64,000 nt of DNA from Escherichia coli. Its GTDB lineage: Bacteria > Pseudomonadota > Gammaproteobacteria > Enterobacterales > Enterobacteriaceae. Below, in pieces: positions 53,801 to 56,800 of this stretch. The stretch lies in NCBI RefSeq assembly GCF_003018255.1, contig NZ_CP027440.1; one strand, given 5' to 3'. Numbering within the stretch: the first letter of the stretch is position 1; each line of letters opens with the position of its first letter. Position numbers: made by a program.

Positions 53801-56800
53801 TTAGAGAGGATATCGGGTGCGCGATTGGGAATATAACCCAGTTCATCAAGAGCGGCGGCAATCTTGCCGCGTAGAGCGACGGAAACCTGCTCCGGGTTGC
53901 GTAAAAAACGGCTGACCGTCATTTTGGTCACGCCTACACGGTCAGCCACATCCTGAAGTACGGGTCTTTTCTTTTTCATCGTCCTGAAGGTACAAAAGAG
54001 ATAGATTCTCTTAGTTTAACACGGACGCATCAGAACCTTCCCGGGGAAAACAGTGCTTGTTTACAATTATTAGATATACACTAAATCAATTGCATCGCAT
54101 TGTGCTAACGACACGGCAAAACCCCGGAAGCGTACATCAGCACGCGACCGGAGCGAGCGAGGAAGCCTGCAAAAAGGCAGGCTTCAAAAATGCCGTTGAG
54201 CTTTAAACCGGCGGCAGATCGAACAGTAACACTTCGCTGTCGCTATCCGCATGGATGGAGATTGCCTGCTCATCCCAGATTGCCAGACCATCGCTGGTCG
54301 AGGCTTTCACGCCGTTAATGGTGACATTGCCTTTCACCACCTGGATCCAGACGCGGCGTTCAGCGGCAATCTGATGTACCGACTGCTCATCTTTCAGCAG
54401 CGCCCAACGATACAGTTCCATATCCTGATGCACTTTCAATGAACCATCTCGCGCATCCGGCGAGAGCACCAGCTGTTTGCCCTGTACGGCATCGAAGCGA
54501 CGCTGTTCATAACGCGGTGTAATGCCGTTTTCTTCAGGCATGATCCAGATCTGATACAGATGCAGACGCTCGGTGCTGCTTGGGTTGTACTCTGAGTGAC
54601 GAATACCCGTACCCGCACTCATAATCTGGAACTCGCCCGCCGGAACCTGCTCTTTATTGCCCATGCTGTCCTGATGCTCAACAGTACCTTCCAGCACGTA
54701 GGTCAAAATTTCCATATCTTTATGCGGGTGAGTGCCGAAGCCCTGCCCTGCTTCAATCACGTCGTCGTTAATCACGCGCAGCGCGGAGAAGCCCATAAAG
54801 TTCGGGTCGTAGTAGTTGGCAAAAGAGAAAGTATGCCAGGAGTCCAGCCAGCCATGATTTGCATGACCACGTTCATTTGCTTTGCGTAAGTAGATCATTT
54901 GTATTCGCCCCCTGAATGTTTTCGATGGGCTTAGTGTGGACCCGATCTGCCTGGGATGATAGAGGGTGAAAATTGACCCCTCTGTTCAAAAAAATTGAAC
55001 TATTAGAGGGGCCATCAAACTTACTTCGCGAGAGTCACTGTGGAGGGAGAAGCTTGCTCAAATCCGCGTTCAAGGATTTCCAGATTGGTAAGAACTTCAG
55101 ATTCCTTGACGTAATTTGGCGCACCGTTGGTGATGGTTTGATACAACGCATCATAAACGCGCCCGTAATCGCCCATCTCCGGCTTTATCTCTTCTCTGAC
55201 CGTCACGCCCTCGTCATTGACATACTCCAGCACACCGACCGAATCATCCGCCGCGAATCCCGGTTCGCCCGGCATAATATTAGCCTTGAGGCTGGTTTCC
55301 TGCTGGTCGATACCGTATTTAATAAACGAACCTTTCTTACCGTGAACGATAAATTTCGGATAATCGATTTTCACCAGATGGCTGGTTTTGACGATGGCTT
55401 TCAGGTCGCCATAAAACAGCTGCGCTTCAAAGGTGTCGTCAGGATTGGCTTTATTGCGCAGGCTGCGGATGTCATAAGCGACGTGATCCGGGCGACCGAA
55501 CAGAGAAATAATCTGGTCCATCGTATGCACACCAAGGCCATAGAACGCGCCATCCTGCGGCAGCCCAGGTTTGGTTTCTGTCACCGGGCGGTAATAGTCA
55601 AAATGGCTTTCCACTTCGACAATCTCTCCAAGCTTGCCGCTTTCAATCGCTTTTTTCGCTGTCAGGAAGCAGGAATCAAAGCGACGATTCTGATATGGCG
55701 TGACGGTCAGCCCTTTACTTTTCGCCAGAGCAAACAGCTCTTTCGCCTGCGCAAGCGTCGGAGTGAACGGTTTTTCGACCAGCACATTTTTCCCGGCTTC
55801 CAGCGCGCGCTTCGCGTACTCGAAGTGGCTGTCCGCATGGGTGCAGACAACAACCAGCTTAACATCGGGATCGTTTAGCACTTCGTCGAGATCGCTGGTG
55901 AAATGGATATGGGAATAAATGGGAGCCTGTTCTTCCGGCTTCGCATGGCGACGAAAAATATGCGCGACATGCCAGCTATCCTTGCGGTTAAGTACATACG
56001 GCAGATGGTAACGGGTGGTGCTTTTGCCGAAGCCAATAAAGGCGCAGTTGATGACCATGATTTCGTCCTTTTTAAGGTGATTATTTACACCTTAGCGCAA
56101 AGCGGACGTGGTTCCTACTGGAGTGCGCATAACGAACACAAGCACTTCCCGTGGATAAATTGAAAACGAAAGATCAAAAAAAAAGCCAGCACCCGGCTGG
56201 CTAAGTAATACTGGAAGCAATGTGAGCAATGTCGTGCTTTCAGGTTCTCCGCGAGGGTCTTCCTGATCGCGAGACAATAATAATCATTCTCATTCGCACT
56301 TGTCCAACACTTTTTGCAAAAAAATGCATTTGACTCGCATTTGAAAGTCAATGATGTTGAAAGGGACATTTACCCCAAAGAGGACAAAGGAATGAGTGAG
56401 ATAGTGATACGCCACGCAGAAACACGGGATTACGAGGCCATCAGGCAGATTCACGCCCAGCCGGAGGTGTATTGCAACACACTACAACTACCTCATCCTT
56501 CAGAAGGCTGGTGGCCAGAAAGATTGAAAGATCGCCAGGGGTTTAAACAACTGGTTGCCAGCATTGATGGCATCGTGGTGGGTCATCTTTTCATTGAGGC
56601 TTATCAAGGCCCACGCCGTAGTCATGTTGCAACTTTTGGTATCTGTGTTGACTCCCGCTGGCACAACCGCGGCGTCGCCAGCGCCCTGATCCGCGAATTG
56701 ATTGAAATGTGCGACAACTGGTTACGGATAGATCGTATTGAGTTGACGGTGTTTGCAGATAACGCCCCGGCAATCGCAGTCTATAAAAAATTCGGCTTTC

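What the first reader, a model, noticed from the sequence alone, without database searches (positions are those of the whole stretch)
56177..56297. RyhB sRNA with Fur box between yhhX and yhhY
The minus-strand sequence matches RyhB, including its terminator hairpin and U-tail, with a Fur box over the promoter. In the same window the feoABC operon also carries a Fur-box-like motif at 5785-5810, so two arms of the iron-starvation response are present. The long upstream extension of the yhhY ORF in the six-frame track (start 56314) is an artefact overlapping this promoter.
Basis: partly seen in the sequence, partly recalled or inferred. Interest (0 to 1): 0.3.

Follow-up and report, generated by a model that had tools for sequence, protein, structure and literature searches.

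The report
RyhB iron-sparing small RNA gene
This is the textbook E. coli ryhB gene, a roughly 90-nt small RNA switched on by iron starvation, sitting in its usual place with its Fur-repressed promoter; it is real but entirely ordinary and already known.

Summary
Rfam's RyhB model (RF00057) gives the only above-threshold RNA hit in the 64-kb window: 56241-56177, minus strand, 83.1 bits against a cut-off of 55. The gene annotated in K-12 (b4451, 95 nt) maps to window 56270-56176. It is 100% identical to K-12, promoter included.

- **Promoter:** -35 TGGACA at 56306-56301 and -10 TATTAT at 56282-56277.
- **Fur box:** 56273-56291, matching 16 of 19 consensus positions. It is the best match in the window, and no shuffle produced one as good. 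It covers -21 to -3, so it overlaps the -10 element.
- **Terminator:** 7-bp GC-rich hairpin at 56202-56184, followed by nine T.
- **Conservation:** across 120 loci from other species that share the RyhB core, both the upstream Fur box and the terminator are kept, the terminator with compensatory stem changes.

Two side claims need qualifying. The feo motif (5785-5810) is weak against the consensus (13/19; 23 sites in the window score as well). It does coincide with the published feoA Fur-site cluster. The yhhY extension from TTG 56314 is a calling artefact, because the true start is ATG 56392. It lies upstream of the ryhB -35 and does not overlap the core promoter.

Verdict: already known, low interest.

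The parts
56176..56270 (-). ryhB gene. The transcript starts at 56270 and ends in the U-tail at 56184-56176. The published RNA is about 90 nt; the K-12 annotation is 95 nt.
   Evidence: 100% identical to K-12 b4451. Rfam RF00057 scores 83.1 bits over 56241-56177.
56211..56233 (-). Conserved single-stranded core GACAUUGCUCACAUUGCUUCCAG, the part of RyhB that base-pairs with target mRNAs.
   Evidence: The exact 23-mer was found in at least 120 loci across Enterobacterales, Vibrionales and Aeromonadales. It is invariant in the Rfam consensus. Its role in target pairing is taken from the literature, not tested here.
56176..56202 (-). Rho-independent terminator: AGCCAGC-CGGGU-GCUGGCU plus nine U. 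Together with the U-rich stretch before it, this forms the Hfq-binding module.
   Evidence: Terminator scan and fold. 94 of 118 distinct homologous sequences keep a hairpin plus T-tail, with compensatory stem changes. Morita 2015 (PMC4509938) reports a polyU of 9 and this Hfq-binding module.
56277..56306 (-). Sigma-70 promoter of ryhB: -35 TGGACA (56306-56301), 18-nt spacer, -10 TATTAT (56282-56277).
   Evidence: It is the only promoter-like site in 55900-56700, matching 10 of 12 positions. The -10 ends 7 nt before the annotated 5' end at 56270.
56273..56297 (-). Fur operator. The main 19-bp Fur box is at 56273-56291 (16/19), spanning -21 to -3. A second site in 6-bp register lies at 56279-56297 (14/19).
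   Evidence: Chen 2007 (PMC2189734) found a 25.2-bit site at -15 overlapping two weaker sites and confirmed binding by gel shift on the identical K-12 sequence. 89 of 111 homologous loci have a Fur box with 4 or fewer mismatches upstream of the core.
55021..56058 (-). yhhX (GFO/IDH/MocA oxidoreductase), the downstream neighbour on the same strand as ryhB.
   Evidence: It lies downstream on the same strand in 15 other loci, at a spacing of 74-1464 nt.
56392..56880 (+). yhhY (GNAT N-acetyltransferase), the divergent neighbour. Its true start is ATG 56392, not TTG 56314.
5782..5812 (+). feoA upstream Fur-site cluster: three sites in 6-bp register, matching 12-13 of 19 consensus positions. It belongs to the same regulon, not to the ryhB locus.

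Best explanation
This is the chromosomal ryhB gene of an E. coli strain. When iron is sufficient, Fe2+-Fur binds the operator at 56273-56297. That operator covers the -10 hexamer and reaches to 3 bp before the transcription start, so RNA polymerase is excluded.

When iron is scarce, Fur releases the operator. Transcription then starts at 56270 on the minus strand and stops at the hairpin and U9 terminator (56202-56176), giving an RNA of about 90 nt.

Hfq binds the 3' hairpin with its U-tail and the preceding U-rich stretch. The conserved single-stranded core (56233-56211) pairs with mRNAs for non-essential iron-using proteins, blocking their translation and triggering their degradation. This spares iron.

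**Shown here:** sequence identity with the characterised gene, the covariance-model match, the promoter, Fur-box and terminator anatomy, and conservation of all three across species.

**Taken from the literature on the identical K-12 sequence:** Fur binding, induction by iron depletion, Hfq dependence and target regulation.
For: - **Family match:** Rfam RF00057 at 83.1 bits against a cut-off of 55, full model length.
- **Identity:** 191 nt spanning the gene and promoter are identical to K-12 MG1655 apart from one substitution downstream of the terminator and one end gap. The ncRNA ryhB (b4451) is annotated there between yhhX and yhhY.
- **Prevalence:** the 154-nt gene plus promoter is at least 99% identical in 5075 of 5424 complete E. 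coli genomes.
- **Promoter:** a single sigma-70-like promoter is correctly placed.
- **Fur box:** 16/19, the best in the window, with 0 of 100 shuffles matching it.
- **Published binding:** a 25.2-bit Fur site at -15 with a gel shift (PMC2189734).
- **Published regulation:** RyhB is induced by Fe2+ depletion through inactivation of Fur. The terminator hairpin plus polyU of 9 is the Hfq-binding module (PMC4509938).
- **Fur box across species:** 89 of 111 loci have a Fur box with 4 or fewer mismatches within 260 nt upstream of the core, against 3.7% of control windows from the same loci.
- **Terminator across species:** 94 of 118 distinct sequences keep a terminator with compensatory stem variants, such as GCCAGC/GCUGGC, GCCCGC/GCGGGC, GCCGGC/GCCGGC and GCCAAC/GUUGGC.
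- **Synteny:** the yhhY ATG lies 169-202 nt from the start of the core's reverse complement in 25 species, and 178-188 nt in 21 of them.
Against: Nothing substantive. The minimum free energy of the whole 95-nt RNA is no better than shuffled sequence (z = -0.67), so thermodynamic stability alone would not have flagged it. That is usual for sRNAs with a single-stranded seed. RefSeq PGAP annotations of most E. coli genomes list no feature here. That is an annotation habit and does not indicate absence. No expression data exist for this particular strain.
Confidence: 0.98

Rival explanations
1. The Fur-regulated promoter mainly serves yhhX. In this view the 'RyhB' segment is a transcribed leader whose terminator acts as an attenuator, so yhhX is iron-regulated by read-through. 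As an additional role beside the sRNA it is possible; as a replacement for the sRNA reading it is not tenable.
For: - yhhX follows ryhB on the same strand, with its ATG at 56058, 117 nt after the tail.
- No sigma-70 consensus promoter was found in that gap.
- The same gene order holds in 15 other loci.
- About 20% of polymerases read through the ryhB terminator during normal growth. [quoted passage not shown]
Against: - The ryhB-yhhX spacing varies from 74 to 1464 nt between species, whereas ryhB-yhhY spacing is nearly fixed. The arrangement therefore does not look like a tuned leader.
- Termination at ryhB is enhanced, not relaxed, under iron depletion.
- In Klebsiella ryhB is not followed by yhhX at all (PMC3423075).
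- The consensus promoter scan is crude, so a weak yhhX promoter could easily be missed.
Confidence: 0.25
2. A silent or decayed copy: the sequence resembles RyhB but is not expressed or functional in this strain.
For: None specific. Only the general point that no expression data for this strain are available.
Against: The promoter, operator, RNA and terminator are 100% identical to the experimentally characterised K-12 gene. The locus is conserved at 99% or more in 5075 of 5424 E. coli genomes.
Confidence: 0.01
3. A chance resemblance in an AT-rich intergenic region.
For: None.
Against: E 3.6e-14 against the whole of Rfam. No shuffle produced a Fur box as good. The locus is syntenic with the annotated gene.
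Confidence: 0

Closest known systems
E. coli K-12 RyhB (b4451; Rfam RF00057), also called SraI
   Same: Nucleotide-identical RNA, promoter, Fur operator and terminator. Same position between yhhX and yhhY and same orientation.
   Different: Nothing in the gene itself. One substitution (window 56164) lies 12 nt downstream of the U-tail. The neighbouring yhhY allele is unusually diverged (84% protein identity).
RyhB paralogues and orthologues in other Enterobacterales, Vibrio and Aeromonas (e.g. the RyhB1/RyhB2 pairs seen as two loci per genome in Yersinia, Photorhabdus, Pantoea, Enterobacter)
   Same: Identical 23-nt core, a Fur box upstream and, outside Vibrio, a hairpin plus U-tail 1-20 nt after the core, at 8-9 nt in most.
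   Different: The window holds a single copy. The 5' part and the terminator stem sequence differ between lineages. In the Vibrio-type loci no terminator was found within 70 nt of the core.
Other Fur-repressed iron-sparing sRNAs (PrrF in Pseudomonas, HrrF in Haemophilus, IsrR in Staphylococcus)
   Same: Same regulatory logic: Fur-repressed sRNAs that down-regulate iron-using proteins (titles and abstracts of PMC4144887 and PMC9410917; PrrF from general knowledge).
   Different: No sequence relationship. They are functional analogues, not family members.

Membership tests
RyhB sRNA (Rfam RF00057) | Covariance-model score at or above the curated gathering score | tested here: met
   83.1 bits against 55, full-length match 1-67/67.
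RyhB sRNA (Rfam RF00057) | Conserved core pairing sequence (GCACGACAUUGCUCACAUUGCUUCCAGU) | tested here: met
   Present at 56238-56211. The exact 23-nt core is shared with at least 120 loci from three orders of Gammaproteobacteria.
RyhB sRNA (Rfam RF00057) | Rho-independent terminator with a long U-tail at the 3' end (Hfq-binding module) | tested here: met
   A 7-bp stem plus 9 U. Stem covariation in 94 of 118 homologues. Matches the description in PMC4509938.
RyhB sRNA (Rfam RF00057) | Genomic context in Escherichia: between yhhX and yhhY, divergent from yhhY | tested here: met
RyhB sRNA (Rfam RF00057) | A transcript of about 90 nt induced by iron limitation; Hfq-dependent repression of targets such as sodB and sdhCDAB | not testable with these tools
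   Rests on published work with the identical K-12 sequence (Masse and Gottesman 2002, as cited in PMC2189734 and PMC4509938). The original paper is not held in the library.
Fur regulon (direct repression) | Fur box close to the 19-bp consensus GATAATGATwATCATTATC | tested here: met
   16/19 at 56273-56291, the best in the window, with 0 of 100 shuffles matching. Consensus as quoted in PMC3423075.
Fur regulon (direct repression) | Operator overlaps the core promoter, so that binding occludes RNA polymerase | tested here: met
   The box spans -21 to -3 and covers the -10 hexamer at 56282-56277.
Fur regulon (direct repression) | Fur box conserved at orthologous promoters | tested here: met
   89 of 111 loci have a box with 4 or fewer mismatches, against 3.7% of controls.
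Fur regulon (direct repression) | Physical binding of Fur to the site | not testable with these tools
   A gel shift on the identical K-12 oligonucleotide is reported in PMC2189734.
Fur regulon: feoABC promoter site (5785-5810) | Fur box better than the chance background of the window | tested here: not met
   Best sites have 6 of 19 mismatches, and 23 sites in the window are as good. Three sites in 6-bp register, and coincidence with the published 10.9- and 13.4-bit sites, keep the assignment plausible. That plausibility rests on the literature, not on this test.

The most novel reading that the evidence does not exclude
The ryhB promoter may also drive yhhX by terminator read-through. That would make the ryhB-yhhX pair a Fur-controlled sRNA-mRNA operon like sgrS-setA, with the oxidoreductase YhhX as an uncharacterised member of the iron-starvation response. 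The same-strand linkage is conserved in 15 other loci, and no consensus promoter lies in the 117-nt gap. According to Morita 2015 the idea had not been tested experimentally.
Probability: 0.2. Interest if true: 0.3.

Novelty: already known. Interest (0 to 1): 0.05.

Why it matters
It does not change anything. RyhB is one of the best-studied bacterial small RNAs, and this copy is nucleotide-identical to the K-12 reference gene. There are two practical points.

- Automatic RefSeq annotation of most E. coli genomes leaves this locus unlabelled. A scan that recovers it from raw sequence is therefore behaving correctly.
- The mechanically called 188-aa yhhY ORF should be trimmed to the 162-aa protein that starts at 56392.

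Tried and rejected
- **Thermodynamic test.** The 95-nt RNA folds no better than shuffles (z = -0.67). This is uninformative and was not used as evidence.
- **Consensus scoring of the feo site.** It gave only 13/19, no better than 23 other sites in the window. I did not accept it on sequence alone and relied on mapping the published sites.
- **Primary papers.** I tried to read Masse and Gottesman 2002 (PMC123697) and Kammler 1993 (PMC206716). Neither is held, so their content is cited second-hand through PMC2189734 and PMC4509938. A look in PMC1635276 for a mechanism statement yielded nothing useful.
- **Coding potential.** I considered a small protein over the locus. The minus-strand ORFs 56092-56277 (61 aa) and 56115-56369 (84 aa) and the plus-strand ORF 56229-56333 (34 aa) start upstream of, or run across, the RNA's 5' end. 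All are products of mechanical ORF calling, and nothing supports them.
- **yhhX synteny and spacing.** I checked this as a test of the co-transcription idea. The order is conserved but the spacing is very variable, so the result is inconclusive.

Full report
**What the window is**

The 64-kb window is E. coli chromosome. It is collinear with K-12 MG1655 from pck/envZ through feoABC, the mal, glp and glg genes, gntRKU, yhhW, yhhX and yhhY to the ugp genes, at 95-98% identity. The one large difference is a roughly 10-kb insertion.

**Observation**

A scan of the whole window against all 4227 Rfam families returns one hit above threshold. It is RF00057 RyhB at 56241-56177 on the minus strand, 83.1 bits against a gathering score of 55, E 3.6e-14, covering the full model.

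The K-12 record annotates the ncRNA ryhB (b4451, 95 nt) between yhhX and yhhY. Aligning 191 nt around it with the window shows one substitution, which lies downstream of the terminator. The gene therefore maps to 56270-56176, minus strand, and the RNA, its promoter and its operator are identical to K-12.

The 154-nt gene plus promoter is at least 99% identical in 5075 of 5424 complete E. coli genomes that have it.

**Anatomy (minus strand)**

- **Promoter.** -35 TGGACA at 56306-56301, an 18-nt spacer, and -10 TATTAT at 56282-56277. This is the only promoter-like site in 55900-56700. The -10 ends 7 nt before the annotated 5' end at 56270.
- **Fur box.** GAGAATGATTATTATTGTC at 56291-56273, matching 16 of 19 consensus positions. 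It is the only site in the window with 3 or fewer mismatches, and none of 100 shuffles produced one. A full Hamming scan ranks it first in the window. A second site 6 bp further upstream (56279-56297) has 5 mismatches, the phased arrangement typical of Fur operators. The box spans -21 to -3, so it covers the -10 element.
- **Terminator.** AGCCAGC-CGGGU-GCUGGCU at 56202-56184, followed by nine U.

It stops 9 bp short of the far end of the -35 and one base short of the tail.

**Literature on the identical K-12 sequence**

- Chen et al. 2007 (PMC2189734) found a 25.2-bit Fur site at -15 of ryhB overlapping two weaker sites, and confirmed binding by gel shift. They note that Vassinova and Kozyrev first found this as a 'yhhX' Fur site.
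- Morita et al. 2015 (PMC4509938) state that RyhB is induced by Fe2+ depletion through inactivation of the Fur repressor.
- The same paper reports that the terminator hairpin plus a polyU of 9 forms the Hfq-binding module, and that about 20% of polymerases read through the terminator.
- PMC3423075 gives the Fur-box consensus and the yhhX/yhhY context.

**Comparative evidence gathered here**

The 23-nt core GACATTGCTCACATTGCTTCCAG occurs in at least 120 loci from Enterobacterales, Vibrionales and Aeromonadales, often twice per genome.

- **Fur box.** Among the 111 loci with enough flank, 89 have a Fur box with 4 or fewer mismatches within 260 nt upstream of the core. Only 3.7% of random 260-nt windows from the same loci do.
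- **Terminator.** Of 118 distinct downstream sequences, 94 have a hairpin plus T-tail, starting 8-9 nt after the core in most of them. The stems show compensatory variants: GCCAGC/GCUGGC, GCCCGC/GCGGGC, GCCGGC/GCCGGC, GCCAGU/ACUGGC and GCCAAC/GUUGGC. Most of the exceptions are the Vibrio and Aliivibrio loci.
- **Synteny.** yhhY is divergent from ryhB in 25 species. The distance from the yhhY ATG to the start of the core's reverse complement is 169-202 nt, and 178-188 nt in 21 of them.

**Mechanism**

With iron present, Fe2+-Fur occupies 56273-56297 and occludes the -10. Without iron, the promoter fires and the RNA ends at the U9 terminator. Hfq binds the 3' module, and the single-stranded core pairs with mRNAs of iron-using proteins and silences them.

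The anatomy and its conservation are shown here. Binding, induction, Hfq dependence and target repression are inferred from the literature on the identical sequence.

**Side claim 1: feoABC**

feoA is at 5920-6147, feoB at 6164-8485 and feoC at 8485-8721.

The motif at 5785-5810 consists of overlapping sites at 5782-5800, 5788-5806 and 5794-5812, with 7, 6 and 6 mismatches. 23 sites in the window score as well as the two best, so it is not significant on the consensus alone.

Chen et al. predicted two feoA clusters. Their 10.5-bit site maps to 5740. They also report that in vivo Fur binding to this region was shown, but that no footprint existed. The window is identical to K-12 from 5765 to 5811. 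The claim is therefore acceptable, but on literature grounds.

**Side claim 2: the yhhY ORF**

The mechanical ORF runs from TTG 56314 and is 188 aa long. The annotated protein is 162 aa and starts at ATG 56392.

- An AGAGGA Shine-Dalgarno sequence ends 8 nt upstream of that ATG.
- Pfam GNAT profiles begin at residues 30-32 of the long ORF.
- In 25 other species the ATG is conserved.
- In 14 of those species there is an in-frame stop within 12 codons upstream and no alternative start.

The extension is an artefact. It occupies 56314-56391, beyond the -35, so it does not overlap the core ryhB promoter.

**Rival reading**

The only reading with any life is that the same promoter also feeds yhhX by read-through.

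- *For:* the genes share a strand, the gap is 117 nt with no consensus promoter, the order is conserved in 15 other loci, and Morita 2015 says this has not been tested.
- *Against:* the spacing varies from 74 to 1464 nt, termination increases under iron depletion, and Klebsiella lacks yhhX at this position.

It would be an addition to the RyhB assignment, not an alternative to it.

**Verdict**

The finding is correct and already known. Interest is low.

Noticed in passing
window 29417-39382: A roughly 10-kb island between glpD and glgP is absent from K-12, which has only yzgL there. It carries a chaperone-usher fimbrial operon, all on the minus strand: usher 34708-37302, chaperones 32877-33677 and 37339-38118, and four fimbrial subunits including 31741-32862 and 38192-38896 (PF00419). 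The island is present at 80% coverage or more in 556 of 5426 complete E. coli genomes, and partially in 3897.
   Followed up: partly
window 29470-31567: Three minus-strand ORFs lie at the glpD end of the island: 201 aa (hydrophobic), 258 aa and 236 aa. None has a Pfam match. RefSeq labels them 'hypothetical protein' or 'YbbD family protein'.
   Followed up: partly
window 39115-39133: This is the second-best Fur-consensus match in the window: GATAATGATAAAATTTATT, 15/19. It lies about 220 bp upstream of the fimbrial major-subunit ORF, in an AT-rich intergenic region. It could be chance or iron regulation of the fimbriae.
   Followed up: no
window 56500-56900 (yhhY): The yhhY allele is mosaic. 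It has about 80 differences from K-12 in 400 bp (roughly 20%) and 84% protein identity, while the adjacent ryhB and promoter are identical to K-12. Only 103 of 5424 genomes are at least 99% identical over 55900-56700, which suggests a recombined minority allele.
   Followed up: partly
window 56059-56175: The 117-nt gap between the ryhB U-tail and the yhhX ATG has no sigma-70 consensus promoter. yhhX follows ryhB on the same strand in 15 other loci, but at 74-1464 nt. Co-transcription was reported as untested in PMC4509938.
   Followed up: partly
window 25745-26503 and 58292-58786: glpR is an intact 252-aa ORF here, whereas it is annotated as a pseudogene in MG1655. yrhA is intact at 164 aa, with no IS1E insertion, unlike K-12.
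   Followed up: partly
window 5490-5690: The distal part of the yhgF-feoA intergenic region is much more diverged from K-12 than the rest, with indels of 5 and 14 nt and about 30 substitutions. The stretch carrying the predicted Fur sites (5765-5811) is identical to K-12.
   Followed up: no
loci L006/L007, L009/L010, L014/L015, L017/L018, L038/L039 and others: Many Enterobacterales genomes carry two loci with the RyhB core. One has a GCCAGC-type terminator stem and the other often a GCCCGC-type stem, and each has its own Fur box. The window, like E. coli generally, has one.
   Followed up: no
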